Origin: Eledone cirrhosa | Taxonomy: Eukaryota | Length of the DNA stretch: 64,000 nt | Assembly (NCBI GenBank): GCA_964016885.1 | Contig: OZ024742.1 | Span: 356,748,001 to 356,812,000 of the forward strand | Reading direction: 5' to 3' | Part shown: one piece after another, positions 1,514 to 64,000 of the stretch | Numbering within the stretch: position 1 is the first letter of the stretch | Layout of the letters: each line of letters opens with the position of its first letter | Program-made: the position numbers and the translations under genes | The notes under the pieces: model-generated | The model's database searches: none | Seen by the model: only the letters and a program-made list of their open reading frames with translations | Told to the model about the DNA's origin: nothing

Positions 1514-4500
1514 GCAGTGGATTTGCAGAATCATTAGACCATCGGACAAAAGGCTTTACAACACAGTTAGACCATCGGACAAAAGGCTTTACAACACAGT
1601 TAGACCATCGGACAAAAGGCTTTACAACACAGTTAGACCATCGGACAAAAGGCTTTACAACAAAGTTAGTCCAGTGAACAAAAGGCTTTACAACAAAGTT
1701 ACACCATTGAACAAAAGGCTTTACAACAAAGTTAGACCAGTGAACAAAAGGCTTTACAACAAAGTTAGACCAGTGAACAAAAGGCTTTACAACAAAGTTA
1801 GACCAGTGAACAAAAGGCTTTACAACAAAGTTAGACCAGTGAACAAAAGGCTTTACAACAAAGTTAGACCAGTGAACAAAAGGCTTTACAACAAAGTTAG
1901 ACCAGTGAACAAAAGGCTTTACAACAAAGTTAGACCAGTGAACAAAAGGCTTTACAACAAAGTTAGACCAGTGAACAAAAGGCTTTACAACAAAGTTAGA
2001 CCAGTGAACAAAAGGCTTTACAACAAAGTTAGACCAGTGAACAAAAGGCTTTACAACAAAGTTAGTCCAGTGAACAAAAGGCTTTACAACAAAGTTAGAC
2101 CAGTGAACAAAAGGCTTTACAACAAAGTTAGACCAGTGAACAAAAGGCTTTACAACAAAGTTAGTCCAGTGAACAAAAGGCTTTACAACAAAGTTAGACC
2201 AGTGAACAAAAGGCTTTACAACAAAGTTAGTCCAGTGAACAAAAGGCTTTACAACAAAGTTAGACCAGTGAACAAAAGGCTTTACAACAAAGTTAGACCA
2301 GTGAACAAAAGGCTTTACAACAAAGTTAGTCCAGTGAACAAAAGGCTTTACAACAAAGTTAGTCCAGTGAACAAAAGGCTTTACAACAAAGTTAGACCAG
2401 TGAACAAAAGGCTTTACAACAAAGTTAGTCCAGTGAACAAAAGGCTTTACAACAAAGTTAGTCCAGTGAACAAAAGGCTTTACAACAAAGTTAGACCATT
2501 GAAAAAAAGGCTTTACAACAAAGTTAGTCCAGTGAACAAAAGGCTTTACAACAAAGTTAGACCATTGAACAAAAGGCTTTACAACAAAGTTAGTCCAGTG
2601 AACAAAAGGCTTTACAACAAAGTTAGACCATTGGACAAAAGGCTTTACAACAAAGTTAGACCATTGGACAAAAGGTTTTACAACAAAGTTAGACCATTGA
2701 ACAAAGGCTTTACAACAAAGTTAGACCATTGGACAAAAGGCTGTACAACAAAGTTAGAGCATTGAACAAAAGGCTTTACAACAAAGTTAGACCATTGAAC
2801 AAAAGGCTTTACAACAAAGTTAGTCCAGTGAACAAAAGGCTTTACAACAAAGTTAGACCATTGAACAAAAGGCTTTACAACAAAGTTAGTCCAGTGAACA
2901 AAAGGCTTTACAACAAAGTTAGACCATTGAACAAAAGGCTTTACAACAAAGTTAGACCATTGGACAAAGGCTTTACAACAGAGTTAGACCATTGGACAAA
3001 AGGCTTTACAACAAAGTTAGACCATTGGACAAAAGGCTTTACAACAAAGTTAGACCATTGAACAAAAGGCTTTACAACAAAGTTAGTCCAGTGAACAAAA
3101 GGCTTTACAACAAAGTTAGACCATTGAACAAAAGGCTTTACAAGAAAGTTAGACCAATGAACGAAGGCTTTACAACAAAGTTAGACCATTGGACAAAAGG
3201 CTTTACAACAAAGTTAGACCATTGAACAAAGGCTTTACAACAAAGTTAAACCATTGGACAAAAGGCTTTACAACAAAGTTAGACCATTGAACAAAAGGCT
3301 TTACACCAAAGTTAGAACATTGAACAAAGGCTTTACAACAACGTTAGACCATTGGACAAAAGGCTTTACAACAAAGTTAGCCAATTGAACAAAAGGCTTT
3401 ACAAGAAAGTTAGACCATTGAACAAAGGCTTTACAACAAAGTTAGACCATTGGACAAAAGGCTTTACAACAAAGTTAGACCATTGAACAAAAAGCTTTAC
3501 AACAAAGTTAGACCATTGAACAAAAGGCTTTACAACAAAGTTAGACCATTGGACAAAAGGATTTACAACAAAGTTAGACCATTGAACAAAGGCTTTACAA
3601 CAAAGTTAGACCATTGGACAAAAGGCTTTACAACAAAGTTAGACCATTGAACAAAGGCTTTACAACAAAGTTAGACCATTGAACAAATGGCTTTACAACA
3701 AAGTTAGACCATTGAACAAAGGCTTTACAACAAAGTTAGACAATTGAACAAAAGGCTTTACAACAAAGTTAGACCATTGAACAAAGGCTTTACAACAAAG
3801 TTAGACCATTGGACAAAAGGATTTACAACAAAGTTAGACCATTGAACAAAGGCTTTACAACAAAGTTAGACCATTGAACAAAAAGTTTTACAACAAAGTT
3901 AGACCATTGAACAAAAGGCTTTACAACAAAGTTAGACCATTGAACAAAAGGCTTTACAACAAAGTTAGACCATTGAACAAAGGATTTACAACAAAGTTAG
4001 ACCATTGGACAAAAGGCTTTACAACAAAGTTAGACCATTGAACAAAGGCTTTACAACAAAGTTAGACCATTGGACAAAAGGCTTTACAACAAAGTTAGAC
4101 CAATGAACAAAAGGCTTTACAACAAAGTTACACCATTGAACAAAAGGCTTTACAACAAAGTTAGACCATTGAACAAAAGGCTTTACAACAAAGTTAGACC
4201 ATTGAACAAATGGCGTTACAACAAAGTTAGACCACTGGACAAAAGGCTTTACAACAAAGTTACACCATTGAACAAAAGGCTTTACAACAGAGTTAGACCA
4301 TTGAACAAAAGGCTTTACAACAAAGTTAGACCATTGGACAAAAGGCTTTACAACAAAGTTAGACCATTGAACAAAAGGCTTTACAACAAAGTTAGACCAT
4401 TGAACAAAAGGCTTTACAACAAAGTTAGACCATTGGACAAAAGGCTTTACAACAAAGTTAGACCATTGAACAAAAGGCTTTACAACAAAGTTAGACCATT

Positions 4501-7500
4501 GAACAAAAGGCTTTGCAACACAGTTAGACCAGTGAACAAAAGGCTTTACAACAGAGTTAGACCATTGAACAAAAGGCTTTACAACAAAGTTAGACCATTG
4601 GACAAAAGGCTTTACAACAAAGTTAGACCATTGAACAAAAGGCTTTACAACAGAGTTAGACCATTGAACAAAAGGCTTTACAACAGAGTTAGAACATTGA
4701 ACAAAAGGCTTTACAACAGATTTAGACCATTGGACAAAAGGCTTTACAACAAAGTTAGACCATTGGACAAAAGGCTTTACAACAAAGTTAGACCATTGAA
4801 CAAAAGGCTTTACAACAAAGTTAGACCATTGAACAAAAGGCTTTACAACAAAGTTAGACCATTGGACAAAAGGCTTTACAACAAAGTTAGACCATTGGAC
4901 AAAAGTCTTTACAACAGAGTTAGACCATTGAACAAAAGGCTTTACAACAGAGTTAGACCATTGAACAAAAGGCTTTACAACAAAGTTAGACCATTGGACA
5001 AAATGCTTTACAACAAAGTTAGACCATTGAACAAAAGGCTTTACAACAAAGTTAGACCATTGAACAAAAGGCTTTACAACAAAGTTAGACCTTTGAACAA
5101 AAGGCTTTACAACAAAGTTAGACCATTGGACAAGAGGCTTTACAACAAAGTTAGACCATTGGACAAAAGGCTTTACAACAAAGTTAGACCATTGGACAAA
5201 AGGCTTTACAACAGAGTTAGACCATTGAACAAAAGGCTTTACAACAGAGTTAGACCATTGAACAAAAGGCTTTACAACAGAGTTAGACCATTGGACAAAA
5301 GGCTTTACAACAAAATTAGACCATTGAACAAAAGGCTTTACAACAGCGTTAGACCATTGAACAAAAGGCTTTACAACAAAGTTAGACCATTGAACAAAAG
5401 GCTTTACAACAGAGTTAGACCATTGAACAAAAGGCTTTACAACAGAGTTAGACCATTGGACAAAAGGCTTTACAACAAAATTAGACCATTGAACAAAAGG
5501 CTTTACAACAGCGTTAGACCATTGAACAAAATGCTTTACAACAAAGTTAGATCATTGAACAAAAGGCTTTACAACAGAGTTAGACCATTGAACAAAAGGC
5601 TTTACAACAGAGTTAGACCATTGAACAAAAGGCTTTACAACAGAGTTAGACCATTGGACAAAAGGCTTTACAACAAAATTAGACCATTGAACAAAAGGCT
5701 TTACAACAGCGTTAGACCATTGGACAAAATGTTTTGCAGCAGAGTTAGACCATTGAACAAAAGGCTTTACAACAGAGTTAGACCATTGGACAAAAGGCTT
5801 TACAACAAAATTAGACCATTGAACAAAAGGCTTTACAACAGCGTTAGACCATTGAACAAAAGGCTTTACAACAAAGTTAGACCATTGAACAAAAGGCTTT
5901 ACAACAGAGTTAGACCATTGAATAAAAGGCTTTACAACAGAGTTAGACCATTGGACAAAAGGCTTTACAACAAAATTAGACCATTGAACAAAAGGCTTTA
6001 CAACAGCGTTAGACCATTGAACAAAAGGCTTTACAACAAAGTTAGACCATTGAACAAAAGGCTTTACAACAGAGTTAGACCATTGAACAAAAGGCTTTAC
6101 AACAGAGTTAGACCATTGGACAAAAGGCTTTACAACAAAATTAGACCATTGAACAAAAGGCTTTACAACAGCGTTAGACCATTGAACAAAAGGCTTTACA
6201 ACAAAGTTAGACCATTGGACAAAAGGCTTTACAACAGAGTTAGACAATTGAACAAAAGGCTTTACAACAGAGTTAGACCATTGGACAAAAGGCTTTACAA
6301 CAGAGTTAGACCATTGAACAAAAGGCTTTACAACAGAGTTAGACCATTGAACAAAAGGCTTTACAACAGAGTTAGACCATTGGACAAAAGGCTTTACAAC
6401 AGCGTTAGACCATTGAACAAAAGGCTTTACAACAAAGTTAGACCATTGGACAAAAGGCTTTACAACAGAGTTAGACCATTGAACAAAAGGCTTTACAACA
6501 AAGTTAGACCATTGGACAAAAGGCTTTACAACAGAGTTAGACCATTGAACAAAAGGCTTTACAACAGAGTTAGACCATTGGACAAAAGGCTTTACAACAG
6601 AGTTAGACCATTGGACAAAAAGCTTTACAACAGCGTTAGACCATTGAACAAAAGGCTTTACAACAAAGTTAGACCATTGAACAAAAGGCTTTACAACAAA
6701 GTTAGACCATTGAACAAATGGCGTTACAACAAAGTTAGACCACTGGACAAAAGGCTTTACAACAGCGTTAGACCATTGGACAAAATGTTTTGCAGCAGAG
6801 TTAGACCATTGAACAAAAGGCTTTACAACAAAGTTAGACCATTGGACAAAAGGCTTTACAACAGAGTTAGACCATTGAACAAAAGGCTTTACAACAGAGT
6901 TAGACCATTGGACAAAAGGCTTTACAACAGAGTTAGACCATTGGACAAAAGGCTTTACAACAAAGTTAGACCATTGAACAAAAGGCTTTACAACAAAGTT
7001 AGACCATTGAACAAAGGCTTTACAACAAAGTTAGACCATTGGACAAAAGGCTTTACAACAAAGTTAGACCATTGAACAAAGGCTTTACAACAAAGTTAGA
7101 CCATTGGACAAAAGGCTTTACAACAAAGTTAGACCAATGAACAAAAGGCTTTACAACAAAGTTACACCATTGAACAAAAGGCTTTACAACAAAGTTAGAC
7201 CATTGAACAAAAGGCTTTACAACAAAGTTAGACCATTGAACAAATGGCGTTACAACAAAGTTAGACCACTGGACAAAAGGCTTTACAACAAAGTTACACC
7301 ATTGAACAAAAGGCTTTACAACAGAGTTAGACCATTGAACAAAAGGCTTTACAACAAAGTTAGACCATTGGACAAAAGGCTTTACAACAAAGTTAGACCA
7401 TTGAACAAAATGCTTTACAACAAAGTTAGACCATTGAACAAAAGGCTTTACAACAAAGTTAGACCATTGGACAAAAGGCTTTACAACAAAGTTAGACCAT

Positions 7501-10145
7501 TGAACAAAAGGCTTTACAACAAAGTTAGACCATTGAACAAAAGGCTTTGCAACACAGTTAGACCAGTGAACAAAAGGCTTTACAACAGAGTTAGACCATT
7601 GAACAAAAGGCTTTACAACAAAGTTAGACCATTGGACAAAAGGCTTTACAACAAAGTTAGACCATTGAACAAAAGGCTTTACAACAGAGTTAGACCATTG
7701 AACAAAAGGCTTTACAACAGAGTTAGAACATTGAACAAAAGGCTTTACAACAGATTTAGACCATTGGAAAAAGGCTTTACAACAAAGTTAGACCATTGGA
7801 CAAAAGGCTTTACAACAATGTTAGACCATTGAACAAAAGGCTTTACAACAAAGTTAGACCATTGAACAAAAGGCTTTACAACAAAGTTAGACCATTGGAC
7901 AAAAGGCTTTACAACAAAGTTAGACCATTGGACAAAAGGCTTTACAACAGAGTTAGACCATTGAACAAAAGGCTTTACAACAGAGTTAGACCATTGAACA
8001 AAAGGCTTTACAACAAAGTTAGACCATTGGACAAAAGGCTTTACAACAAAGTTAGACCATTGAACAAAAGGCTTTACAACAAAGTTAGACCATTGAACAA
8101 AAGGCTTTACAACAAAGTTAGACCTTTGAACAAAAGGCTTTACAACAAAGTTAGACCATTGGACAAGAGGCTTTACAACAAAGTTAGACCATTGGACAAA
8201 AGGCTTTACAACAGAGTTAGACCATTGAACAAAAGGCTTTACAACAGAGTTAGACCATTGAACAAAAGGCTTTACAACAAAGTTAGACCATTGGACAAAA
8301 GGCTTTACAACAAAGTTAGACCATTGAACAAAAGGCTTTACAACAAAGTTAGACCATTGAACAAAAGGCTTTACAACAAAGTTAGACCTTTGAACAAAAG
8401 GCTTTACAACAAAGTTAGACCATTGGACAAGAGGCTTTACAACAAAGTTAGACCATTGGACAAAAGGCTTTACAACAAAGTTAGACCATTGGACAAAAGG
8501 CTTTACAACAGAGTTAGACCATTGAACAAAAGGCTTTACAACAGAGTTAGACCATTGAACAAAAGGCTTTACAACAGAGTTAGACCATTGGACAAAAGGC
8601 TTTACAACAAAATTAGACCATTGAACAAAAGGCTTTACAACAGCGTTAGACCATTGAACAAAAGGCTTTACAACAAAGTTAGACCATTGAACAAAAGGCT
8701 TTACAACAGAGTTAGACCATTGAACAAAAGGCTTTACAACAGAGTTAGACCATTGAACAAAAGGCTTTACAACAGAGTTAGACCATTGGACAAAAGGCTT
8801 TACAACAAAATTAGACCATTGAACAAAAGGCTTTACAACAGCGTTAGACCATTGGACAAAATGTTTTGCAGCAGAGTTAGACCATTGAACAAAAGGCTTT
8901 ACAACAGAGTTAGAGCATTGGACAAAAGGCTTTACAACAAAATTAGACCATTGAACAAAAGGCTTTACAACAGCGTTAGACCATTGAACAAAAGGCTTTA
9001 CAACAAAGTTAGGCCATTGAACAAAAGGCTTTACAACAGAGTTAGACCATTGAACAAAAGGCTTTACAACAGAGTTAGACCATTGGACAAAAGGCTTTAC
9101 AACAAAATTAGACCATTGAACAAAAGGCTTTACAACAGCGTTAGACCATTGAACAAAAGGCTTTACAACAAAGTTAGACCATTGAACAAAAGGCTTTACA
9201 ACAAAGTTAAACCATTGAACAAAAGGCTTTACAACAAAGTTAGGCCATTGAACAAAAGGCTTTACAACAAAGTTAGACCATTGAACAAAAGGCTTTACAA
9301 CAAAGTTAGACCATTGAACAAAAGGCTTTACAACAAAGTTAGACCATTGAACAAAAGGCTTTACAACAAAGTTAGACCATTGAACAAAAGGCTTTACAAC
9401 AAAGTTAGAACATTGAACAAAAGGCTTTACAACAAAGTTAGACCATTGAACAAAAGGCTTTACAACAGCGTTAGACCATTGAACAAAAGGCTTTACAACA
9501 AAGTTAGACCATTGAACAAAAGGCTTTACAACAAAGTTAGACCATTGAACAAAAGGCTTTACAACAGAGTTAGACCATTGAACAAAAGGCTTTACAACAG
9601 AGTTAGACCATTGGACAAAAGGCTTTACAACAAAGTTAGACCATTGGACAAAAGGCTTTACAACAAAGTTAGACCATTGAACAAAAGGCTTTACAACAAA
9701 GTTAGAACATTGAACAAAAGGCTTTACAACAAAGTTAGACCATTGAACAAAAGGCTTTACAACAGAGTTAGACCATTGAACAAAAGGCTTTACAACAAAA
9801 TTAGACCATTGAACAAAAGGCTTTACAACAAAGTTAGACCATTGGACAAAAGGCTTTACAACAGAGTTAGACCATTGAACAAAAGGCTTTACAACAAAAT
9901 TAGACCATTGAACAAAAGGCTTTACAACAGAGTTAGACCATTGAACAAAAGGCTTTACAACAAAATTAGACCATTGAACAAAAGGCTTTACAACAGAGTT
10001 AGACCATTGGACAAAAGGCTTTACAACAAAATTAGACCATTGAACAAAAGGCTTTACAACAGCGTTAGACCATTGGACAAAATGTTTTGCAGCAGTAGTC
10101 AAATCCTACTTTGGTCAACTTTCCCTTTTATCCTTCTGGGATAAT
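1514..10145 (+). mobile_element. SINE copy split by an internal 8.5-kb satellite expansion
   Basis: Head gcagtggatttgcagaatcattag at 1514-1537 runs into the array. After the last unit the SINE resumes as tagtcaaatcctactttggtcaactttcccttttatccttctggg (10096-10140; B-box remnant plus central domain). Confidence 0.75.
1533..10095 (+). repeat. 33-bp tandem satellite, consensus GTTAGACCATTGAACAAAAGGCTTTACAACAAA, ~260 units
   Basis: Periodicity directly visible; translates as the 11-aa repeat VRPLNKRLYNK; occasional 32-bp units shift the frame. Confidence 0.98.
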
Positions 10146-11317: not shown

Positions 11318-11364
11318 ATTGATATCTATCTATCTATGATGATAAGGAAGATAGAAGCTCGATG

Positions 11365-11655: not shown

Positions 11656-11908
11656 GGCTTATGTGGTGCTGTACTAATTATTTATCATCTTTTCATTTTG
11701 TCTGATACTGCCAACAAAGAGCTTGAGTTGTTAAATATACTGATAACCTTGTGTGGTGGAAGTCTTGTTGCTTTGAAGATTGAGACAGTAAATCAGTAGT
11801 AAAGTATTTTGATAATTTGCCAAGTAAACTTCTTCAGCAATGTTGATATAGTCACCGCCTCTGTCTCTCTTGCTCTCCCCATCTCTCTCTATTATAAGCC
11901 AAATGGTT

Positions 11909-12099
11909 AGGGCGGTGGATTGGCAGTATTGGTCGAGGGTCAGACACCATGATTTGCAGCAAAGAGTTATGTCCCTTTATGGTTTGAGTTCAAATCCCGC
12001 CGAGGTTTACTTTGCCCTTTATCCTTACGGGGTCGATAACATAAAGTACCAGTAATACACTGGGATAATTGCTGGCCTTGCACCAAAAAGTAGAAACAA
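11909..12099 (+). mobile_element. Full-length tRNA-derived SINE with target-site duplication (reference copy for both satellites)
   Basis: A-box-like TGGCAGTATTGG, B-box GAGTTCAAATCC, central ctttgccctttatccttacggggtcgataacataaagtacc (resembles the Meta-domain type), 3' gctggccttgcaccaaaaagtagaaac. TSD ctattataagccaa at 11889-11902 and 12100-12113. Confidence 0.88.
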
Positions 12100-12290
12100 C
12101 TATTATAAGCCAATGGGAGCCTACACACTGGCCACACCCTGGCCCCAGTGGACAGAATAGAGAAGGCATTTCCCTGGAGGATGGGGAGGGAGATGCATTG
12201 GAAGAGCCATTGCAGCTGTGGGTAGCCAACTCTGTGCTGCTGGTGGTGAGTAGGGAGGTGGTCCTAGGGTCAAGGACACCAGAAGTCTCC
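12100..12290 (-). mobile_element. 3' fragment of a CRE-like element, interrupted at its tail by the SINE
   Basis: Minus-strand ETSGVLDPRTTSLLTTSSTELATHSC; clear nucleotide similarity to 10370-10555 (ccagtggacagaa...gcattggaaga...acaccagaagtctcc). Confidence 0.65.
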
Positions 12291-25914: not shown

Positions 25915-26105
25915 ATGGGTGCCATGAATTGGCAGTATTGGTAGAGGGTCAGACATGCTTTCCAGCGTAGTTACGTCCCTTTACAATCTGAGTTCAAATC
26001 CCTCCGAGGTTAACTTTGCCTTTCATCCTTACGGGGTCTATAAAATAAAGTATCAGCAATACACTGGGTATTTGCTGGCCTTGTGGCAAAAGTAGAAACA
26101 ATTAT
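25915..26105 (+). mobile_element. tRNA-derived SINE, same subfamily as 11909-12099 and 29471-29660
   Basis: attggcagtattggtagagggtcagaca, gagttcaaatcc, ctttgcctttcatccttacggggtc, gctggccttgtggcaaaagtagaaacaattatt. Confidence 0.85.
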
Positions 26106-26234
26106 TTTATATAGCATGCCTTGGTGATTTAAATCTGGCAGTTCCTATCCTGCTCTATGTTTGAACAAGTTAACTTTTCTAGAGAAAAAAGCAGAGAATG
26201 AAAGAGAGTGTGATAGAAGTAAATTAGACTCCAA

Positions 26235-26330
26235 AATATGACTTTGCATGATTTGAACTTAAAGAGTTGAGAGCAGGAACAAATACTGTAAAGCACTATA
26301 GCCAAAGTTCTAATGATTCTACTAATTCAT
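26235..26330 (-). mobile_element. Partial degenerate SINE head
   Basis: Plus strand gatttgaactt (B-box complement) and ctaatgattctactaattc (A-box region complement). Confidence 0.5.
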
Positions 26331-27212: not shown

Positions 27213-27372
27213 TGAGGCAGCAAATTGGTAGAATCATTATAACGTCAGATAGAATGCTTTGTCATATTCATTTGTTCTCTGCTCTCTGAGTTCAAATCCT
27301 GTCAAGATCAATTTTGCTTTTCATCCTTTTAAAGTCAATAAAAAAATGTACCAGTCTAATACTGGGGTGGAT
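27213..27372 (+). mobile_element. Degenerate SINE copy
   Basis: attggtagaatcatta...ctgagttcaaatcc...ttttgcttttcatcctttt...gtaccagtctaatactgggg. Confidence 0.75.
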
Positions 27373-47600: not shown

Positions 47601-50600
47601 TCCACCCTCTTCCTATACAGCAATCCAGCATACATGGCGTCCAACCCTCTACCAATACTGCCAATCCAGCACCCATAGCATTCAATCCTCTACCAATACT
47701 GCTAATCGAGCACCCATGGCATTGAATCCTCTACCAATACAGCCAATCCAGCACCCATAGCATTCAATCCTCTACCAATACTGCCAATCCAGCAGCCATG
47801 GCGTCGAACCCTCTACTGCCAATCCACCACCCATGGCGTCCAACCCTCTACCAATACTGCCAATCTACCACCCATGGCATCCAACCCTCTACCAATACTG
47901 CATTCCACCACCCATGGCATCCAACCCTCTACCAATACTGCCAATCCACCACCAATGACATCCGACCCTCTACCTATACTGCCAATCCATCACCCATGGC
48001 GTCCAACCCTCTACCAATACTGCCAATCCACCACCAATGGCATCCACTCTCTACCAATACTGCCAATCCACCACCAATGGCATCCACCCTCTACCAATGC
48101 TGCCAATCCACCACCAATGGCATCCACCCTCTACCAATGCTGCCAATCCACCACCCATGGCTTCCAAACATCTACCAATACTGTCAATCCAACACCAATG
48201 GCATCCAACCATCTAACACTCCTGCCAATCCACCACCCATGGCTCCCGACCCTCTACCAATACTGCCAATCCAGCACCCACGGCGTCCAACTCTCTACCT
48301 ATACTGCCAATCCACCACCAATGGCATGCAACCCTCTACCATAACTGCCAATCCACCACCCATGGCGTCTGACCCTCTACCAATACATACTATCCACCAC
48401 CCATGGCATCCGACCCTCTAACAATACTGCCAATCCAGCACCCATGGCATCCAACCCTCTAGCAATACTGCCAATCCAGCACCCATGGCGTCCGACCCTC
48501 TACCAATACTGACAATCAACCACCCAATGCGTACAACCCTCTACCAATACTGCCAATCCACCAGCCATGGCGTCCAACCCTCTACCAATACTGCCAATCC
48601 ACCACACATGGCATCCAACCCTCTAACAATACTGCCAATCCAGCACCCATGGCCTTCAATCCTCTACCAATACTGCCAATCCTCCACCCATGGCGTACAA
48701 CCCTCTACAAATCCTGCCAATCCACCACCCATGGCCTCCAACCCTCTAACAATACTGCCAATCCACCACCAAGTGCATCTAACCCTCTACATATACTGCC
48801 AATTCACCACCATGGCGTCCCGCCCTCTACAAATACTGCCAATCCACCACCCAAGGCATCTAAATATCTACCAATACTGCCAATCCACCACCTATGGCAT
48901 CCAACCCTCTACCAATACTGCCAATCCACCACACGTGGCATCCGACCCTCTACAATACTGCCAATCCAGCACCCATAACATCCAACCCTCTACCTATACT
49001 GCTAATCCACCACCCATGGCATACGCCTCTATACTTATACTGCCAATCCAGCACCCATAGCATTCAATACTCTACCAATACTGCCAATCAAGCACCCATG
49101 GCATTCAATCCTCTACCAATACTGCCAATCCAACACCCATGGCAGTCAATCCTCTACCAATACTGCCAATCCACAACCCATGGCATCCAACCCTCTAACA
49201 ATACAGCCAATCCATCACACATGGCATCTAACCGTCTACCAATACTGCCAATTCACCACACATGGCATCTAACCCTCTACCACTACTGCTAATCCACCAC
49301 ACATGGCATCTAACCCTCTACCAATACTGCCAATCCACCACCTTGGCGTCCAACCCTCTACAATACTGTCAATCCAGCACCCATAGCATCCAACCCTCTA
49401 CCTATACTGCTAATCCACCACCCATGACTTCCGACCCTCTAACTATACTGCAATCCAGCATCGATGGCGTCCAGCCCTCTACCAATACTGCCAATCCAGC
49501 ACCCATAGCATTCAATCCTCTACCAATACTGCCAATCCAGCACCCATAGCATTCAATCCTCTACCAATACTGCCAATCGAGCACCCATGGCATTCAACCC
49601 TCTACCAATACTGCCATTCCAGCACCCATGGCATTCAATCCTTTACCATTACTGCCAATCCAGCACCCATGGCGTCCAACCCTCTACTGCCAATTCACCA
49701 CCCATGGCGTCCAACCCTCTACCAATACTGCCAATCCACCACCCATGGCATCCAACCCTCTACCAGTACTGTCAATCCACCACCCATGGAAAACAACCCT
49801 CTACTAATACTGCCAATCCACCACCAATGGCATCCGACCCTCTACCTATACTGCAATCCAGCATCCATGGCGTCCAACCCTCTACCAATACTGCCAATCC
49901 ACCACACAGTGCATTCAATCCTCTACCAATACTGCCAATCGAGCACCCATGGCATTCAATCCTCTACCAATACTGCCAATCCATCACCCATGGCATCCAA
50001 CCCACAAACAATGCTGCAAATCCACCACACATGGCATCTAACCTTCTACCAATACTGCCAATCCACCACACATGGCATTTAACCCTCTACCAATACTGCC
50101 AATCTACCAACCATGGCGTCCAACCCTCTACCAATACTGCCAATCCAGCACCCATAGCATCCAACCCTCTACCTATACTGCTAATCCACCACCCATGGCA
50201 TCCGACCCTCTACCTATACTGCCAATCCACCATGCATGGCGTTCAACCCTCTACCTATACTGCAATCTAGCATCCATGGCGTCCAACCATATACCAATAC
50301 TGCCAATCCAGCACCCATAGCATTCAATCCTCTACCAATACTGCCAAACCAGCACCCATGGCGTCCAACCTTCTACCAATACTGCCAATCCACCACACGT
50401 GGCATCCGATCCTCTACAATACTGCCAATCCAGCACTCATAGCATTCAGTGCTCTACCAACACTGCCAATCGAGCACCCATGGCATTCAATCCTCTACCA
50501 ATACTGCCAATTGAGCACCCATGGCATTCAATCCTCTACCAATACTGCCAATCCAGCACCCATGGCGTCCAATCCTCTACTGCAAATCCACCACCCATGG

Positions 50601-53600
50601 CGTCCAACCCTCTATAAATACTACCAATCCACCACCCATGGCATCCAACCCTCTACCTATACTGCCAATCCACCACCCATAGCATCCAACCCTCTACCAA
50701 TACTGCCAATCCACCACCAATGGCATCCGACCCTCTACCTATACTGCCAATCCCCCACCAAGTGCATCTAACCCTCTACATATACTGCCAATTCACAACC
50801 TGGCGTCCCACCCTCTACCAATTCTGCCAATCGACCACCCATGGCATCTAACCCTCTACCAATACTGCCAATCTACCACCCATGGCGTCCAACCCTCTAC
50901 CAATACTGCCAATCCACCACCCATGGCATCCAACCCTCTACAAATACTGCCAATCCACCACCCATGGCATCCAAACACTCTAGCACTACTGCCAATCCAC
51001 CACACGTGGCTTCCAACCCTCTACAATACTGCCAATCCAGCACCCATAGCATCCAACCCTCTACCTATACTGCTAATCCACCACCCATGGCATCCGAACC
51101 TCTACCTATACTGCCAATCCACCACCCATGGCGTTCAACCCTCTACCTATACAGCAATCCAGCATCCATGGCGTCCAACCCTCTACCAATACTGCCAATC
51201 CAGCACCCATAGCATTCAATCCTCTACCAATACTGCTAATCGAGCACCCATGGCATTCAATCCTCTACCAATACTGCCAATCCAGCACCCATGGCGTCCA
51301 ACCCTCTACTGCCAATCCACCACCCATGGCGTCCAACCCTCTACCAATACTGCCTATCTACCACCCATGGCATCCAACCCTCTGCCAATACTGCCATTCC
51401 ACCACCCATGGCATCCAACCCTCTACCAATACTGCCAATCCACCACCAATGGCATCCGACCCTCTACCTATACTGCCAATCCATCACCCATGGCGTCCAA
51501 CCCTCTACCGATACTGTCAATCCACCACCCATGGCATCCAACCCTCTACAAATACTGCCAATCAACCACGCATGCCATCCAACCCTCTACCAATAGTGCC
51601 AATACGCCACCCATGGTGTCCAACCCTCTACCAATACTGCCAATCAACCACCCATGGCATCCAACTCTCTACCAATACAGCCAATGAACTACCCATGGCG
51701 TCCAACCCTCTACCAATATTGCCAATCCAACCCCATGCCGTCCGACTCTCTACCAATACTGACAAACCACAACCCAAGACATCCGCCCCTCTACCTGTAC
51801 TGCCAATCACCACCCATGGCGTCCAACCCTCTACCAATACTGCGAATCCACCACCCATGGCGCCCAACCCTCTACCAATACTGTCAATCCACCACCAATG
51901 GCATCCAACCCTCTACCAATGCTGCCATTCCACTACCCATGCCATCCAAACGTCTACCTATACTGCCAATCCACCACCCATGGCATCCAACCCTCTACCA
52001 ATATTGCCAATCCACCACCCATGGTTTCCAACCCTCTACCAATACTGTCAATCCAACCATCTAACACTCCTGCCAATCCACCACCCATGGCGTCCGACCC
52101 TCTACCAATACTGCCAATCCAGCACCCACGGCGTCCAACTCTCTACCTATACTGCCAATCCACCACCAATGGCATCCAACCTCTACCATTACTCTCAATC
52201 CACCACAAATGGCTTCCAACCCTCTACCAATACTGCCAATCCAGCACCCATGGCCTTCAATCCTCTACCAATACTGCAAATCCTCCACCCATGGCGTACA
52301 ACCCTCTACAAATCCTGCCAATCCACCAGCCATGGCGTCCAACCCTCTAACACTACTGCCAATCCACCACCAAGTGCATCTAACCCACTACATATACTGC
52401 CATTCACCACCATGGCGTCCCACCCTCTACCAATACTGCCAATCCACCACCCAAGGCATCTAAATATCTACCAATACTGCCAATCCACCACCTATGGCAT
52501 CCAACCCTCTACCAATACTGCCAATCCACAACCCATGGCATCCAACCCTCTAACAATACTGCCAATCCAACACGCATGGCATCTAACCGTCTACCAATAC
52601 TGCCAATTCACCACACATGGCATCTAACCCTCTACCAATACTGCTAATCCACCACACATAGCATCTAACCCTCTACCAATACTGCCAATTCACCACCTTG
52701 GCGTCCAACCCTCTACAATACTGTCAATCCAGCACCCATAGCATCCAACACTCTACCTATACTGCTAATCCACCACCCATGACTTCCGACCCTCTAACTA
52801 TACTGCAATCCAGCATCGATGGCGTCCAACCCTCTACCAATACTGCCAATCGAGCACCCATGGCATTCAACCCTCTACCAATACAGCCAATCCAGCACCC
52901 ATGGCATTCAATCCTCTACCAATACTGCCAATCCAGCACCCATGGCGTCCAACCCTCTACTGCCAATTCACCACCCATGGCGTCCAACCCTCTACCAATA
53001 CTGCCAATCCACCACCCATGGCATCCAATCCTCTACCAATACTGCCAATCCACCACCCATGGAAACCAACCCTCTAACAATACTGCCAATCCACCACCAA
53101 GTGCATCTAACCCTCTACATATACTGCCATTCACCACCATGGCGTCCCACCCTCTACCAATACTGCCAATCCACCACCCAAGGCATTTAAATATCTACCA
53201 ATACTGCCAATCCACCACCTATGGCATCCAACCCTCTACCAATACTGCCAATCCAGCACCCATGGCGTACGACCCTCTACCAATACTGCCAATCCACCAC
53301 CCATGGCGTCCAATCCTCTACCAATACTGCCAATCCACCACAGATGGCATCCAACCCTCTACCAATACTGCCAATCCAGCACCCATGGCCTTCAATCCTC
53401 TACCAATACTGCCAATCCTCCACCGATGGCGTACAACCCTCTACAAATCCTGCCAATCCACCAGCCATGGCGTCCAACCCTCTAACAATACTGTCAATCC
53501 ACCACCAAGTGCATCTAACCCTCTACATATACTGCCATTCACCACCATGGCGTCCCACCCTCTACCAATACTGACAATCCACCACCCAAGGCATCTAAAT

Positions 53601-56600
53601 ATCTACCAATACTGCCAATCCACCACCTATGGCATCCAACCCTCTACCAATACTGCCAATCCAGCACCCGTGGCATCCGCCCCTATGCTTATACTGCCAA
53701 TCCAGCACCCATGGCATCCAACCCTCTACCAATACTGCCAATCCACCACACGTGGCATCCGACCCTCTACAATACTGCCAATCCAGCACCCATAGAATTC
53801 AATCCTCTACCAATACTGCCAATCAAGAACCCATGGCATTCAATGCTCTACCAATACTGCCAATCCAGCACCCGTGGCATCCGCCCCTATGCTTATACTG
53901 CCAATCCAGCACCCATGGCATCCAACCCTCTACCAATACTGCCAATCCACCACACGTGGCATCCGACCCTCTACAATACTGCCAATCCAGCACCCATAGA
54001 ATTCAATCCTCTACCAATACTGCCAATCAAGAACCCATGGCATTCTATCCTCTACCAATACTGCCAATCCACAACCCATGGCATCCAACCCTCTAACAAT
54101 ACTGCCAATCCATCACGCATGGCATCTAACCGTCTACCAATACTGCCAATTCACCACACATGGCATCTAACCCTCTACCAATACTGCTAATCCACCACAC
54201 ATGGCATCTAACCCTCTACCTATACTGCCAATCCACCACCTTGGCGTCCAACCCTCTACAATACTGTCAATCCAGCACCCATAGCATCCAACACTCTACC
54301 TATACTGCTAATCCACCACCCATGACTTCTGACCCTCTAACTATACTGCAATCCAGCATCGATGGCGTCCAACCCTCTACCAATACTGCCAATCCAGCAC
54401 CCATAGCATTCAATCCTCTACCAATACTGCCAATCGAGCACCCATGGCATTCAACCCTCTACCAATACTGCCAATCCAGCACCCATGGCATTCAATCCTC
54501 TACCAATACTGCCAATCCAGCACCCATGGCGTCCAACCCTCTACTGCCAATTCACCACCCATGGCCTCCAACCCTCTACCAATACTGCCAATCCACCACC
54601 CATGGCATCCAACCCTCTACCAATACTGCCAATCGACCACACAGTGCATTCAATCCTCTACCAATACTGCCAAGGAGCACCCATGGCATTCAATCCTCTA
54701 CCAATACTGCCAATCCATCACCCATGGCATCCAACCCACAAACAATGCTGCAAATCCACCACACATGGCATCTAACCGTCTACCAATACTGCCAATCCAC
54801 CACACATGGCATCTAACCCTCTACCAATACTGCCAATCTACCACCCATGGCGTCCAACCCTCTACCAATACTGCCAATCCAGCACCCATAGCATCCAACC
54901 CTCTACCTATACTGCTAATCCACCACCCATGGCATCCGACCCTCTACCTATACTGCCAATCCACCATGCATGGCGTTCAACCCTCTACCTATACTGCAAT
55001 CTAGCATCCATGGCGTCCAACCATATACCAATACTGCCAATCCAGCACCCATAGCATTCAATCCTCTACCAATTCTGCCAATCCAGCACCCATGGCGTCC
55101 AACCTTCTACCAATACTGCCAATCCACCACACGTGGCCTCCGACCCTCTACAATACTGCCAATCCAGCACTCATTGCATTCAATCCTCTACCAATACTGC
55201 CAATCGAGCACCCATGGCATTCAATCCTCTACCAATACTGCCAATCCAGCACCCATGGCGTCCAATCCTCTACTGCCAATCCACCACCCATGGCGTCCAA
55301 CCCTCTATCAATACTGCGAATCCACCACCCATGGCATCTAACCCTCTACCAATACTGCCAATCTACCACCCATGGCGTCCAACCCTCTACAAATACTGCC
55401 AATCCACCACCCATGGCATCCAACCCTCTACAATACTGCCAATCCACCACCCATGGCGTCCAAACACTCTACCACTACTGCCAATCCACCACACCTGGCT
55501 TCCAACCCTCTACAATACGGCCAATCCAGCACCCATAGCATCCAACCCTCTACCTATACTGCTAATCCACCACCCATGGCATCCGACCCTCTACCTATAC
55601 TGCCAATCCACCACCCATGGCGTTCAACCCTCTACCTATACAGCAATCCAGCATCCATGGCGTCCAACCCTCTACCATTACTGCCAATCCAGCACCCATA
55701 GCATTCAATCCTCTACCAATACTGCTAATCGAGCACCCATGGCATTCAATCCTCTACCAATACTGCCAATCCAGCACCCATGGCGTCCAACCCTCTACTG
55801 CCAATCCACCACCCATGACGTCCAACCCTCTACCAATACTGCCAATCTACCACCCATGGCATCCAACCCTCTACCAAACTGCCATTCCACCACCCATGGC
55901 ATCCAACCCTCTACCAATACTGCCAATCCACCACCAATGGCATCCGACCCTCTACCTATACTGCCAATCCTTCACCCATGGCGTCCAACACACTACCGAT
56001 ACTGCCAATCCACCACCCATGGCATCCAACCCTCTACAAATACTGCCAATCAACCACGCATGCCATCCAACCCTCTACCAATACTGCCAATCAACCACCC
56101 ATGGCATCCAACTCTCTACCAATACAGCCAATCAACTACCCATGGCGTCCAACCCTCTACCAATATTGCCAATCCAACCCCATGGCGTCCCACTCTCTAC
56201 CAATACTGACAATCCACAACCCAAGACATCCGCCCATCTACCTATACTGCCAATCACCACCCATGGCGCCCAACCCTCTACCAATACTGCCAATACACCA
56301 CCCATGGCGCCCAACCCTCTACCAATACTGCCAATCCACCACCAATGCCATCCAACCATCTAACACTCCTGCCAATCCACCACCCATGGCATCCGACCCT
56401 CTACCAATACTGCCAATCCAGCACCCACGGCGTCCAACTCTCAACCTATACTGCCAATCCAACACCAATGGCATCCAACCCTCTACCATTACTGCCAATC
56501 AACCACCCATGGCGTCTGACCCTCTACCAATACATAGTATCCACCACCCATGGCATCCGACCCTCTACCAATACTGCCAATCCAGCACCCATGGCATCCA

Positions 56601-59600
56601 ACCCTCTACCAATACTGCCAATCCAGCACCCATGGCGTACGACCCTCTACCAATACTGCCAATCCAACACCCATGGCATCCAACCCTCTACCAATACTGC
56701 CAATCCAGCACCCATGGCCTTCAATCCTCTACCAATACTGCCAATCCTCCACCCATGGCGTACAACCCTCTACAAATCCTGCCAATCCACCAGCCATGGC
56801 GTCCAACCCTCTAACAATACTGTCAATCCACCACCAAGTGCATCTAACCCTCTACATATACTGCCAATTCACCACCATGGCGTCTCACCCTCTACCAATA
56901 CTGCCAATCCACCACCCAAGGCATCTAAATATCTACCAATACTGCCAATCCACCACCTATGGCATCCAACCCTCTACCAATACTGCCAATCCAGCACCCG
57001 TGGCATCCGCCCCTATGCTTATACTGCCAATCCACCACCCATGGCATCCAACCCTCTACCAATACTGCCAATCCACAACCCATGGCATCCAACCCTCTAA
57101 CAATACTGCCAATTCATCACGCATGGCACCTAACCGTCTACCAATACTGCCAATCCACCACACATGGCATCTAACGCTCTACCAATACTGCTAATGCACC
57201 ACACATGGCATCTAACGCTCTACCAATACTGTCAATCCAGCACTCATAGCATCCAACCCTCTACCTATACTGCTAATCCACCACCCATGACTTACGACCC
57301 TCTAACTATACTGCAATCCAGCATCCATGGCGTCAAACCCTCTACCAATACTGCCAATCCAGCACCCATGCCATTCAATCCTCTACCAATACTGCCAATC
57401 CAGCACCCATGGCGTCCAGCCCTCTACTGCCAATGCACCACCCATTGCGTCCAACCCTCTACCAATACTGCCAATCCACCACCCATGGCATCCAACCCTC
57501 TACCAATACTGCCAATCCACACCCATGGCATCCAACCCTCTACCAATACTGCCAATCCAGCACCCATGGCATTCATTCCTCTACCAATACTGCCAATCCA
57601 GCACCCATGGCGTCCAACCCTCTACTGCCAATTCACCACACATGGCGTCCAACCCTCTACCAATACTGCCAATCCACCACCCATGGCATCCAACCCTCTA
57701 CCAATACTGCCAATCCACCACCCATGGAAACCAACCCTCTAACAATACTGCCAATCCACCACCAATGGCATCCGTCCCTCTACCTATACTGCAATCCAGC
57801 ATCCATGGCGTCCAACCCTCTACCAATACTGCCAATCCACCACACAGTGCATTCAATCTTCTACCAATACTGCCAATCTACCACCCATGGCATTCAATCC
57901 TCTACCAATACTGCCAATCCACCACCCATGGCATCCAACCCACAAACAATACTGCAAATCCACCACACATGGCATCTAACCGTCTACCAATACTGCCAAT
58001 CAACCACACATGGCATCTAACCCTCTACCAATACTGCCAATCTACCACCCATGGCGTCCAACCCTCTACCAATACTGCCAATCCAACACCCATGGCATTC
58101 AATCAATCCTCTACCAATAGTGCCAATCCACAACCCATGGCATCCAACCCTCTACAATACTGCCAATCCAGCACACATAGCATCCAACCCTCTACCTATA
58201 CTGCTAATCCACCAGCCATGACTTCTGACCCTCTAACTATACTGCAATCCAGCATCCATGGCGTCGAACCCTCAACCAATACTGCCAATCCAGCACCCAT
58301 AGCATTCAATCCTCTACCAATACTGCCAATCCAGCACCCATGGCGTCCAACTATCTACTGCCAGTCCAGCACCCATGGCGTCCAACCCTCTACCAATACT
58401 GCCAATCCACCACCCATGGCATCCAACACTCTACCAACACTGCCAATCCACCATCCATAGCATCCAACCCTCTACCAATACTGCCAATCCAGCACCCGTG
58501 GCCTTCAATCCTCTACCAATACTGCCAATCCAGCACCCATGGCCTCCAACCCTCTACTGCCAATTCACCATCCATGGCGTCCAACCCTCTACCAATACTG
58601 CCAATCCACCACCCATGGCATCCAACCCTCTACCAATACTGCCAATCCACCACCCATGGAAACCAACCCTCTACCAATACTGCCAATCCACCACCAATGG
58701 CATCCGACCCTCTACCTATACTGCAATCCAGCATCCATGGCGTCCAACCCTCTACCGATACTGCCAATCCACCACACAGTGCATTCAATCGTCTACTAAT
58801 ACTGCCAATCGAGCACCCATGGCATTCAATCCTCTACCAATACTGCCAATCCACCACCCATGGCATCCAACCCACAAACAATACTGCAAATCTACCACAA
58901 ATGGCATCTAACCATCTACCAATACTGCCAATCTACCACCCATGGCGTCCAACCCTCTACCAATACTGCCAATCCAGCACCCATAGCATCCAACCCTCTA
59001 CCTATACTGCTAATCCACCACCCATGGCATCCGATCCTCTACCTATACTGCCAATCCACCATGCATGGCGTTCAACCCTCTACCTATACTGCAATGGAGC
59101 ATCCATGGCGTCCAAACATATACCAATACTGTCAATCCAGCAACCATAGCATTCAATCCTCTACCAATACTGCCAATCGAGCACCCATGGCATTCAATCC
59201 TCTACCAATACTGCCAATCCAGCACCCATGACATTCAATCCTCTACCAATACTGCCAATCCAGCACCCATGGCGTCCAACCCTCTACTGCCAATCCACCA
59301 CCCATGGCCTCCAACCCTCTACCAATACTGCCAATCCACCACCCATGGCATCCAACCCACTAACAATACTGCCAATCCACCACACATGGCATCTAACCGT
59401 CTACCAATACTGCCAATCCACCACACATGGCATCTAACCCTCTAACAATACTGCCAATCCACCACCCATGGCGTCCAACCCTCTACCAATACTGCCAATC
59501 CACCACCCATGGCATCCAACCCTCTACCAATACTGCCAATCCAGCACTCATGGCGTCTGACACTCTACCAATACATACAATCCACCACCCATGGCATCCG

Positions 59601-62600
59601 ACCCTCTACCAATACTGCCAATCCAGCACCCATGGCGTCCGACCATCTACCAATACTGCCAATCAACCACCCATGGCGTACAACCCTCTACCAATACTGC
59701 CAATCCACCACCCATGGCGTACAACCCTCTACCAATACTGCCAATCCACCACCCATGGCGTACAACCCTCTACAAATCCTGCCAATCCACATCCCATGGC
59801 GTCCAACCCTCTACCAATACTGCCAATCCACCACCCAAGGCATCTAAATCTCTACCAATACTGCCAATACACCACCTATGGCATCCAACCCTCTACCATA
59901 ACTGCCAATCCAGCACCCGTGGCATCCGCCCCTACACTTATACTGCCAATCCACCACCCATGGCATCCAACCCTCTACCAATACTGCCAATCCTGCACCC
60001 ATGGCGTCCAACCCTCTACCAATACTGCCAATCCAGCACCCATGGCGTCCAAACCCTCTACCAATACTGCCAATCCACCACACGTGGCATGCGACCCCCT
60101 ACAATACTGCCAATCCAGCACCCATAACATCCAACCCTCTACCTATACTGCTAATCCACCACCCATGGCATCCGCCCCTATACTTATACTGCCAATCCAG
60201 CACCCATAGCATTCAATCCTCTACCAATACTGCCAATCGAGCACCCATGGCATTCAATCTTCTACCAATACTGCCAATCCAGCACCCATGGCATTCAATC
60301 ATCTACCAATACTGCCAATCCAGCACCCATGACGTCCAACCCTCTACTGCCAATCCACCACCCATGGCGTCCAACCCTCTACCAATACTGACAATCCACT
60401 CCCATGGCATCCAGCCCTCTACCAATACTGCCAATCCATCACCCATGGCATCCGACCCTCTACAATTACTGCCAATTCACCTCCCATGGAATTCAATCCT
60501 CTAGTAATACTGCCAATCCATCACACATGGTACCTAACCATCTACCAATACTGCCAATCCACCACACATGGCATCTAACCCTCTACCAATACTGCCAATC
60601 CACCACCATGGCGTCCAACGCTCTACCAATACAGCCAATCCAGCACCCATGGCGTCCAAACCCTCTACCAATACTGCCAATCCACCACACATGGCGTCCG
60701 ACCCTCTACCAATAGTGCCAATCCACCACACATGGCATCCAACCCTCTACCAATAATGCCAATCCACCACCCATGGCGTCCAACCCTCTACCAATACTGA
60801 CAATCCAGCACCCATAGCATTCAATCCTCTACCAATACTGCCGATCGAGCACGCATGGCATTCAATCCTCTACCAATACTGCCAATCCAGCACCCATGGC
60901 ATTCAAACCTCTACCAACACTGACAATCCAGCACCCATGGCGTCCAACCCTCTACTGCCAATCCACCACCCATGGCGTCCAACCCTCTACCAATACTGCC
61001 AATCCACCACCCATGGCATCCAACCCTCTACCAATACTGCCAATCCACCACCCATGGCATCCAACGCTCTACCAACACAGCCAATCAACTACCCATGGCG
61101 TCCAACCCTCTACCAATATTGCCAATCCAACCCCATGGCGTCCGACCCTCTACCAATACTGCCAATCCACCACCCATGGCATCCAACCCACTAACAATAC
61201 TGCCAATCCACCACACATCGCATCTAACCGTCTACCAATACTGCCAATCAACCACACATGGAATCTAACCCTCTACCAATACTGACAATCCACCACCAAT
61301 GGCGTCCAACCCTCTACCGATATTGCCAATCCATCACCCATGGCATCCAGCACTCTACCAATACTGGCAATCCAGCACTCATGGCGTCCGAACCTCTACC
61401 AATACTGCCAATCCACCACCCATGACGTCTAACCCTCTACCAATACTGCCAATCCACCACCCATGGCGTCTGACCCTCTACCAATACATACATTCCACCA
61501 CACATGGCATCCGACCCTCTACCAATACTGCCGATCCAGCACCGATGGCATCCAACCCTCTACCAATACTGCCAATCCAGCACCCATGGCATCCAACCCT
61601 CTACCAATACTGCCAATCCAGCACCCATGGCGTCCGACCATCTACCAATACTGCGAATCAACCACCCATGGCGTACAACCCTCTACCAATACTGCCAATC
61701 CACGACCCATGGCGTCCAAACCTCTACCAACTCTGCCAATCCACCACCCATGGCATTCAATCCTCTACCATTACTGCAATCCACCACCCATGGCATCCAA
61801 CCCACTAACAATACTGCCAATCCACCTCACATGGCATCTAACCGTCTACCAATACTGCGAATCCACCACACATGGCATCTAACCCCCTTCCAAAACTGCC
61901 AATCCACCACACGTGGCGTCCAAACCCTCTACCAATAGTGCCAATCCAGCACCCGTGGCATCCGCCCCTATACTTATACTGCCAATCCAACACCCATGGC
62001 ATCCAACCCTCTACCAATACTGCCAATCCACCACCAATGGCGTCCAATCCTCTACCAATACTGCCAATCCAGCACCCATGGAGTCCAAACCCTCTACCAA
62101 TACTGCCAATCCACCACACGTGGCATGCGACCCTCTACAATACTGCCAATCCAGCACCCATAATATCCAACCCTCTACCATTACTGCTAATCCACCACCC
62201 ATGGCATCCGCCCCTATACTTATACTGCCAATGCAGCACCCATAGCATTCAATCCTCTACATATACTGCCAATCACCACCATGGCATCTGACCCTCTACC
62301 TATACTGCCAATCCACCACACATGGCGTCCAACCCTCTACCACTACTGCCAATCGACACACATGGCGTCCAACCCTCTACTGCCAATCCACCACCCATGG
62401 CGTCCAAGCCTCTACCAATACTGCCAATCCATCATCCATGGCATCCAACCCTCTAACAATACTGCCAATCCACCACACATAGCATCTAACCGTCTACCAA
62501 CACTGCCAATCCACCACACATGGCATCTAACCCTCTACCAATACTGCCAATCCAAGACACATGGCATCTAACCCTCTACCAATACTGCCAATCCACCACC

Positions 62601-64000
62601 CATGGCGTCCAAACCTCTACCAATACTGCCATTCAACCACCATGGCGTCCAACTCTCTACCAATACTGCCACTCCAGCACCCATGGCGTCCAAACCATCT
62701 ACCAATACTGCCAATCAACCACACGTGGCATACGCCCCTCTACTTATACTGCCAATCCACCACACATGGCGTCCAAACCCTCTACCAATACTGCCAATCC
62801 AGCACACGTGGCATCCAACTTTCTACAATACTGCCAATCCACCACACATGGCATCTAACCCTCTACCAAAACTGCCAATCCACGACCCATGGCGTCTAAC
62901 CCTCTAACAATACTGCCAATCCAGCACCCATGGCGTCCAAACCCTCTACCAATACTGCCAATCCACCACACATGGCATCCAACCTTCTACAATACTGCCA
63001 ATCCACCACACATGGCATCTAACCCTCTACATATACTGCTAATCCACCACCCATGGCATCCAACCCTCTACCAATACTGCCAATCCACCACCCATGGCAT
63101 CCGACCCTCTACCTATACTTCCAATCCACCACCCATGGCGTTCAACCCTCAACCAATACTGCCAATCCAGCACCCATAGCATTCAATCCTCTACAAATAC
63201 TGCCAATCGAGCACCCATGGTATTCAATCCTCTACCAATACTGCCAATCCAGCACCCATGGCATTCAATCCTCTACCAATACTGCCAATCAACCACCGAT
63301 TGCATCCAACCCTCTAAGAATACTGCCAATCAACCACCCATGGCCTCCAACCCTCAACTAATACTGCCAATCAACCACCCATGGCATCCAACCCTCAACC
63401 AATACTGCCAATCCACCACCCATGGCATCCAACCCTCTACCAATACTGCCAATCCAGAACCCATGGCATTCAGTCCTCTACCAATACTGCCAATCGAGCA
63501 CCCATGGCATTCAATCCTCTACCAATACTGCCAATCCAGCACCCATGGCATCCAACCCTCTACCAATACTGCCTATCAACCACCTATGGCATCCAACCCT
63601 CAACCAATTTTGCCAATCCACCACACATGGCATTCAGTCCTCTACCAATACTGCCAATCCACCACCCATGACATCCAACCCTCTACCAATACTGCCAATC
63701 CACAACCCGTGGCATTCAATGCTCTACCAATACTGCCAATCCACCACCCATGGCGTCCAACCCTCTACCAATACTGCCAATCCACCACCCATGGCATCCA
63801 ACCCTCTAGCAATTCTGCAAATCCACCAACCATGGCGTCCACCCTTCTACCTATACTGCCAATCCACCACCAATGGCATCCAACCCTCTACCAATACTGC
63901 CAATCCACCACCAATGGCATCCAACCCTCTACTAATAATGCCAATCCACCACCCATGGCATCCGATCCCCTACCTATACTGCCAATCCACCACACATATC
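29616..64000 (-). repeat. 41-bp tandem satellite, plus-strand consensus CCATGGCGTCCAACCCTCTACCAATACTGCCAATCCACCAC, ~840 units, runs off the window
   Basis: Periodicity directly visible with many variant units. Because 41 is not a multiple of 3, the three plus frames chain into one 41-aa pseudo-repeat. Confidence 0.98.

What the first reader, a model, noticed from the sequence alone, without database searches (positions are those of the whole stretch)
1514..64000. Two independent satellites from overlapping parts of the same SINE head within 20 kb: a SINE as recurrent satellite seed
Seen in sequence: the arrays differ in period (33 vs 41) and orientation (convergent) but derive from overlapping windows of one tRNA-like head, sharing tagaNNNttggac. 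At least six unexpanded copies lie in the same window. Inference: the head may be an intrinsic hotspot for tandem amplification, for example through replication pausing at TFIIIC/Pol III sites, template jumping during RTE-mediated reverse transcription, or rolling-circle events. Alternatively this chromosomal region favours amplification. This is the best candidate here for an undescribed system; I cannot verify novelty without a literature search.
Basis: inference. Interest (0 to 1): 0.8.

Follow-up and report, generated by a model that had tools for sequence, protein, structure and literature searches.

The report
SINE-head minisatellite spreading between SINE copies
The first 41-45 bases of a common jumping element form tandem arrays inside more than a hundred separate copies across this animal genome and likely pass from copy to neighbouring copy during DNA repair; the 51-kb array here is one of them, while the nearby 33-base array is a one-off.

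Summary
Observation confirmed: two convergent arrays 19.5 kb apart, both from overlapping parts of homologous SINE heads, plus six unexpanded copies. They are not two draws from one hotspot. The 33-bp array (nt 24-56 of an old copy) is single-locus. The 41-bp array (nt 3-43; about 1,240 units, 50.8 kb) lies inside one insertion bounded by a 13-bp target-site duplication, and belongs to a genome-wide family of head arrays with a few fixed junctions (45 bp: 658 anchor matches; 41 bp: 14 arrays among 45 matches). These sit on several body subfamilies with their own TSDs. Half of the TSD-verified first units lack bases found in the junctions. On C1, 33 of 35 loci lie within 50 Mb of an end, against 5 of 33 controls. 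Neighbouring loci share rare variants, and the rare 41-bp junction clusters on C15. Best reading (0.6, inferred): the junction is copied between existing SINE insertions by interlocus gene conversion, then expands in amplification-prone distal regions. Rivals are multi-headed source RNAs and reverse-transcriptase jumping. SINE-derived satellites are known from squamates, and junction-led spread from Drosophila Rsp-like; their combination, with insertion-level evidence, was not found in print.

The parts
1514..1551 (+). 5' head of an old-subfamily SINE copy that hosts the 33-bp array
1534..10082 (+). 33-bp minisatellite, 259.5 units, SINE nt ~24-56, single locus; unit ends share a 3-4 nt microhomology
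10083..10140 (+). body of the same SINE copy resumes (short internal deletion before a degenerate B-box motif; no tail)
29461..29473 (-). 3' copy of the 13-bp target-site duplication; the 5' copy lies beyond the window at 80466-80478
29474..29622 (-). body and tail of the family-A SINE insertion that hosts the 41-bp array
29623..64000 (-). 41-bp head array (SINE nt 3-43), continues to 80463; 653 distinct among 1,004 regular units, 9.5% mean divergence
1300..1445 (+). unexpanded old SINE copy
11905..12110 (+). unexpanded family-A SINE copy
25915..26110 (+). unexpanded family-A SINE copy
26232..26329 (-). unexpanded old SINE fragment
27205..27380 (+). unexpanded old SINE copy
27545..27755 (-). 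unexpanded old SINE copy, closest in-window relative of the 33-bp host head (85% over 34 nt)

Best explanation
The 41-bp array is a SINE-head minisatellite inside one TSD-bounded insertion, one of more than a hundred such arrays whose fixed head-to-tail junction was likely copied from array-bearing SINE copies into ordinary neighbouring copies by interlocus gene conversion and then likely expanded in place. Shown: many independent insertions, the same few junctions, several body subfamilies, truncated first units, distal position, local sharing of variants and of junction type. Inferred: a break or stalled fork in a SINE head is repaired from a nearby array, importing at least one junction; unequal exchange then lengthens the array, mostly in distal arms and small chromosomes (presumed high recombination). 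The G-rich first 25 nt may aid breakage (predicted only). The 33-bp array is likely a separate microhomology-seeded duplication that grew in the same amplification-prone region.
For: TSD around the whole 50.8-kb array. Of 113 array loci examined, 103 had both ends readable and 52 had a strict TSD of at least 10 nt abutting the first unit, against about 1 in shuffled pairings; 26 of these 52 first units lack nt 2-4 and 13 lack at least 7 head bases that junction units carry, so the first duplication cannot have been templated by the resident copy alone. Bodies fall in 4 classes plus 'other', with long and short tails. Position: 33 of 35 C1 loci within 50 Mb of an end vs 5 of 33 control monomers, p=1e-11; 17 of 119 matches on the four giant chromosomes (54% of the genome) vs at least 100 of 203 controls. 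Bystander monomers are no denser distally (47 in 643 kb vs 46 in 265 kb) and have the same subfamily mix (12 of 47 vs 14 of 46). Local sharing: pairs under 5 Mb apart share a rare variant in 28 of 126 cases, permutation p=0.004; variant 33G in four consecutive C2 loci with different bodies, 9A in four C1 loci at 429-434 Mb, with an ancestral first unit at L253. Five of 14 true 41-bp arrays lie in 5.9 Mb of C15 on different bodies (0 of 20,000 uniform draws; p=0.016 against a clustered null). The nt45-to-nt1 joint is in raw reads of three other samples, 13-20 read starts each.
Against: No conversion event was seen directly: no monomer-versus-array allele pair of one insertion was available. In 16 of 47 informative loci the first and last units share a non-CpG variant, which is simpler if one RNA was copied twice and needs extra turnover or a short junction patch under conversion. 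A young class (TT junction on one body type) has 119 matches and many dimers, as a double-headed source element would give. The under-1-Mb bin alone is not significant (10 of 53, p=0.11) and long arrays carry more variants, which confounds the sharing test. Some arrays lie in the interior of C3 and C4. No 41-bp array is known near this window; the only other one found on C3 is at the opposite end. No recombination map. Counts rest on exact-match patterns and only the first 100 places are listed.
Confidence: 0.6

Rival explanations
1. Multi-headed source elements: array-bearing copies are transcribed from an upstream head and retrotranspose as dimers or oligomers, which then expand and exchange variants locally.
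For: Explains TSDs, truncated first units and variants shared by both ends. The TT-junction class on one young body type is large and dimer-rich (119 matches).
Against: Both 45-bp junction types and the 41-bp type occur on several body subfamilies. On C1 all 7 dimers and trimers are within 55 Mb of an end and the interior holds one array, although monomers of the same subfamilies are at least as dense there.
Confidence: 0.17
2. Reiterative reverse transcription: at insertion the LINE enzyme reaches the RNA 5' end and jumps back to nt 43-45, adding head copies.
For: The unit starts exactly at SINE nt 1; first-unit truncation resembles that of monomers (intact nt 2-4 in 20 of 52 vs 8 of 30); both-end variant sharing in 16 of 47. 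The 45-to-1 joint is the best of 1,152 possible joints in matching a motif near the LINE 3' end (12 of 14, post hoc).
Against: Predicts dimers wherever SINEs insert; none in 330 Mb of C1 interior. Does not explain local clustering of junction type or variants. The 13 sporadic C1 head duplications, all interior, have varied junctions and 2-3 units.
Confidence: 0.1
3. Independent local origin at an intrinsic hotspot: each array arose by slippage or unequal exchange within its own head in regions that favour amplification. Likely right for the 33-bp array.
For: 33-bp array is unique with microhomology at the unit ends. One-off B-box arrays exist (4 and 11 units among 30 loci fetched; longer ones listed on C12). 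G4Hunter score peaks at SINE nt 1-25 (0.92). The window's TSD end resembles the 41-bp junction in 12 of 14 positions.
Against: For the 45/41 family the junction bases are missing from the resident first unit in 26 of 52 TSD-verified loci, and other 41-bp loci have no flank microhomology.
Confidence: 0.1

Closest known systems
SINE-derived satellites (sSat1-3) of squamates, PMC10702118, especially snake sSat3SRP
   Same: Tandem units from part of a SINE, one dominant unit at many loci, terminal unit running into the SINE end, few to about 1,000 units, subtelomeric tendency.
   Different: Units here are 33-50 nt (70-290 nt there) and start at the SINE 5' end without the B box; whole arrays are TSD-bounded. 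That paper's main text has no occurrence of 'TSD', 'target site' or 'junction' and invokes unequal recombination for the first duplication. Supplements not seen.
Spread of Drosophila Rsp-like into 1.688 clusters, PMC7403614
   Same: One rare junction shared among loci, proposed to seed new clusters at pre-existing homologous repeats by interlocus conversion or eccDNA.
   Different: There one satellite invades another on one chromosome; here the recipients are dispersed SINE insertions on at least 24 chromosomes and the invader is the SINE's own head. No synteny or eccDNA data here.
TE-derived minisatellites in human, PMC3389668
   Same: At least 23% of minisatellites derive from TEs; some TE regions are hotspots; microhomology-flanked origins fit the 33-bp array.
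   Different: Shared hotspots there are put down to in situ duplication or to transposition of a repeat-bearing element (LTR12), not to transfer between existing copies.
Octopus tRNA-derived SINEs (Ohshima and Okada 1994, cited in PMC4758252)
   Same: Recalled resemblance of the element only.
   Different: Not tested: no reference sequence available; a 15-nt body motif found 0 papers.

Membership tests
SINE | short, high-copy, interspersed | tested here: met
   about 190-230 nt; 72,956 head and 135,628 B-box motif matches
SINE | target-site duplications and simple-repeat tail | tested here: met
SINE | tRNA-derived head with Pol III A and B boxes | tested here: inconclusive
   motifs fit recalled consensus; no ARAGORN or Rfam hit
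SINE | 3' end shared with a partner LINE | tested here: inconclusive
   only a 10-nt local match to the last 150 nt of the window's LINE; other LINEs not tested
SINE-derived satellite (sSat) | tandem unit derived from part of a SINE, terminal unit continuing to the SINE end | tested here: met
SINE-derived satellite (sSat) | at least four middle monomers | tested here: met
   both window arrays; 68 of 113 loci have 5 or more units
SINE-derived satellite (sSat) | shared unit across loci | tested here: met
   45- and 41-bp types; not met for the 33-bp array
SINE-derived satellite (sSat) | subtelomeric preference | tested here: inconclusive
   distal at the 50-Mb scale; window is 22 Mb from the end of C3; not strictly subtelomeric
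Rsp-like/1.688-type spread | same junction at different loci with different recipient variants | tested here: met
Rsp-like/1.688-type spread | recipient repeat predates the array (synteny) | not testable with these tools
   no related genome held
Rsp-like/1.688-type spread | eccDNA or 3D contact between loci | not testable with these tools
   no such data
Octopus OK/OR1/OR2 SINEs | sequence identity to the published consensus | not tested
   names recalled, OR2 seen in PMC4758252; no sequence available

The most novel reading that the evidence does not exclude
A 'homing' minisatellite: a head-to-tail junction of a SINE head that behaves as a selfish element of its own, converting already-inserted SINE copies into arrays one neighbourhood at a time, with about 100,000 copies as potential targets and each new array raising the donor supply. 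The founding 45-bp junction may have been bridged by a LINE 3'-end motif.
Probability: 0.5. Interest if true: 0.75.

Novelty: new variant of a known kind. Interest (0 to 1): 0.58.

Why it matters
How one satellite unit comes to occupy many loci is an open question, because origins are usually erased. Here each array keeps its host's TSD, 5' truncation point and body subfamily, so donor and recipient can be told apart at hundreds of loci ranging from 2 to over 1,200 units. That makes satellite birth and spread directly testable. It also offers a mechanism for the uniform snake sSat3 loci, and warns that SINE heads can be exchanged after insertion, which affects subfamily dating.

Tried and rejected
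Assembly artefact: rejected; 653 distinct of 1,004 units, 1,137 of 50,880 positions in repeated exact 300-mers, and the 45-bp joint is in raw reads of other samples; the window's own arrays were not checked against reads. Telomerase addition (the TT junction contains a telomere-like hexamer, recalled): rejected as general cause because junction units restore non-telomeric head bases missing from the first unit. Strong hairpin defining the unit: folding gave no head-limited stem, only predicted two-tier G-quadruplexes. 41-bp pattern hits: 31 of 45 are not 41-bp arrays, mostly monomers with a matching flank. The 20-bp array at +137 kb matches SINE nt 133-146 but has non-SINE flanks, probably chance. 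One search used a wrong spacing and found 5 variants only. Reads laid on an old copy gave 597-946 records and no back-joint, too few to test older heads. No RNA holder listed. The 33-bp unit count failed through a script error and is not used. Earlier scan findings: none. The protein atlas gave no taxon for the LINE. Literature searches searches found no report of this family or of conversion-driven spread of SINE-head arrays; subscription journals are mostly not covered.

Full report
Setting. The window is G000:C3:356,748,001-356,812,000 in a 3.0-Gb assembly; C3 is 378.9 Mb long, so the window is about 22 Mb from its end. The SINE resembles octopus SINEs by my recall only; no call names the organism.

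Observation. Tandem Repeats Finder gives a 33-bp array at 1534-10082 (259.5 copies) and a 41-bp array from 29623. With 120 kb of neighbouring assembly, the second ends at 80463, about 1,240 units. Six unexpanded SINE copies lie between or beside them. On a monomer reference the 41-bp unit is nt 3-43 of the young family A and the 33-bp unit about nt 24-56 of an older subfamily.

Each array lies inside one SINE copy. The 33-bp array interrupts a copy whose head begins at 1514 and whose body resumes at 10083; its unit ends share 3-4 nt of microhomology. All 141 genome matches to its junction pattern are in the window. The 41-bp array sits 5' of an intact body, and a 13-bp TSD flanks the whole 51 kb. 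It is heterogeneous, 653 distinct of 1,004 regular units, so not a collapse artefact.

Genome-wide test of the hotspot idea. A head motif has 72,956 matches and its tandem form 515; a B-box motif has 135,628 and its tandem form 115. On C1, the only chromosome fully listed in both, that is 34 against 5 loci, 12.6-fold per motif if both motifs have the same C1 share. Of the 34, 13 are sporadic 2-3-unit duplications with varied junctions, all interior; the other 21 have 41-45-bp units. A pattern anchored on the 45-bp junction next to the body has 658 matches, some repeated within mixed arrays, and 35 loci on C1. The 41-bp junction has 45 matches, of which 14 are true arrays. Raw reads of three other samples from one separate study show the nt45-to-nt1 joint with 20, 17 and 13 read starts; among the 15 joints shown (473 not shown), the other internal back-joints had 1-2 starts.

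Anatomy of the family. I examined 113 array loci (2 to over 207 units, median 7, 18 dimers). Of 103 with both ends readable, 52 have a strict TSD abutting the first unit (about 1 in shuffled pairings). In 26 of these 52 the first unit lacks nt 2-4, and in 13 it lacks at least 7 head bases, yet junction units carry the full start. The resident copy therefore cannot have supplied the first junction. Bodies belong to several subfamilies: 18, 14, 10, 2 and 7 'other' of 51, with 4 long tails.

Position. 33 of 35 C1 loci are within 50 Mb of an end against 5 of 33 control monomers (p=1e-11); one junction-body subclass has 17 of 119 matches on C1-C4, which hold 54% of the genome, against at least 100 of 203 controls. 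Bystander monomers in fetched flanks are not denser distally and have the same subfamily mix. Distal flanks are also rich in unrelated long minisatellites: 105 of 185 arrays in 1.07 Mb of fetched, non-random loci did not match the SINE, and a 33-kb 57-bp array lies 30 kb beyond the window. The closeness of the two window arrays is thus best put down to the region.

Exchange between loci. Among C1 and C2 loci, pairs under 5 Mb apart share a rare variant in 28 of 126 cases (p=0.004); the under-1-Mb bin alone gives p=0.11. Variant 33G is in four consecutive C2 loci within 1.4 Mb that have different bodies; 9A is in four C1 loci at 429-434 Mb, and at L253 the first unit is ancestral while inner units carry the neighbours' junction-side haplotype. 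Five of the 14 41-bp arrays lie in 5.9 Mb of C15 on different bodies.

Mechanism. These facts fit transfer of the junction between existing insertions by interlocus conversion or template switching, then expansion by unequal exchange (inferred, 0.6). Against it: 16 of 47 informative loci share a non-CpG variant at both ends; a young dimer-rich class fits a double-headed source; some arrays are interior on C3 and C4; no 41-bp neighbour of this window is known; no allele pair or recombination map was available. Multi-headed source RNA (0.17), reverse-transcriptase jumping (0.10) and independent local origin (0.10) remain. The 41-bp junction equals the 45-bp junction less four bases, but no 45-bp junction remains in the window's array, so its origin is open.

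Comparison with print. PMC10702118 (parts 1, 3 and 4 of 5 read, plus passages) describes SINE-derived satellites in squamates with uniform units and subtelomeric bias, without TSD or junction analysis in the main text. PMC7403614 (passages) proposes junction-led spread of Rsp-like into 1.688 clusters. PMC3389668 (passages) reports TE-derived minisatellites and hotspots. PMC4758252 (passages) names octopus SINEs. Other papers were seen as listings only, and no supplements were opened; those of PMC10702118 may bear on novelty. Nine searches found no report of this family.

Verdict. A real feature: a new variant of SINE-derived satellite with unusually good evidence on how it spreads. Interest 0.58.

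Noticed in passing
window 19040-22162 (-) and 13467-16183 (-): Two copies of an endonuclease-reverse transcriptase LINE with a PHD-like finger; the second has a 1,040-aa open frame, the first is broken; 93% protein identity. RTE clade not tested.
   Followed up: partly
window ~13200-13213 and ~18780-18793; L302 nt 39-45 and 1-7: The 45-bp junction matches a motif near the LINE 3' end in 12 of 14 positions (13 with the common nt-5 variant), the best of 1,152 possible joints; post hoc and driven by a shared 7-mer.
   Followed up: partly
window 22465-24449: Nested tandem repeats (98-bp units inside ~600-bp blocks) upstream of the LINE frame.
   Followed up: no
G000:C3, window coordinates 94498-127333 and 137286-138503: A 33-kb 57-bp TGG-rich array grown from a microsatellite-like tract, and a 20-bp, 61-unit array inside a non-SINE sequence.
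   Followed up: partly
G000:C2:21.85-21.96 Mb (L081, L082) and C2:18.44 Mb (L272): Large mixed 45/50-bp head arrays, at least 30 kb, with a shared 50-bp junction type on the same distal arm.
   Followed up: partly
G000:C12:32.16 Mb and C12:49.64 Mb; L193, L180: One-off arrays derived from the B-box region (37, 72, 34 and 59 bp units).
   Followed up: partly
45-bp arrays on C1 and C2: Array-enriched variants fall at CpG sites as transversions (22A, 33G, 34T) and at nt 5 and nt 44; nt 5 is C in the first unit but T in later units at 10 loci, the reverse at 1.
   Followed up: partly
L002, L005, L012, L018 and reads: Full-length SINE copies often lie head-to-tail, inserted in each other's tails.
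   Followed up: no
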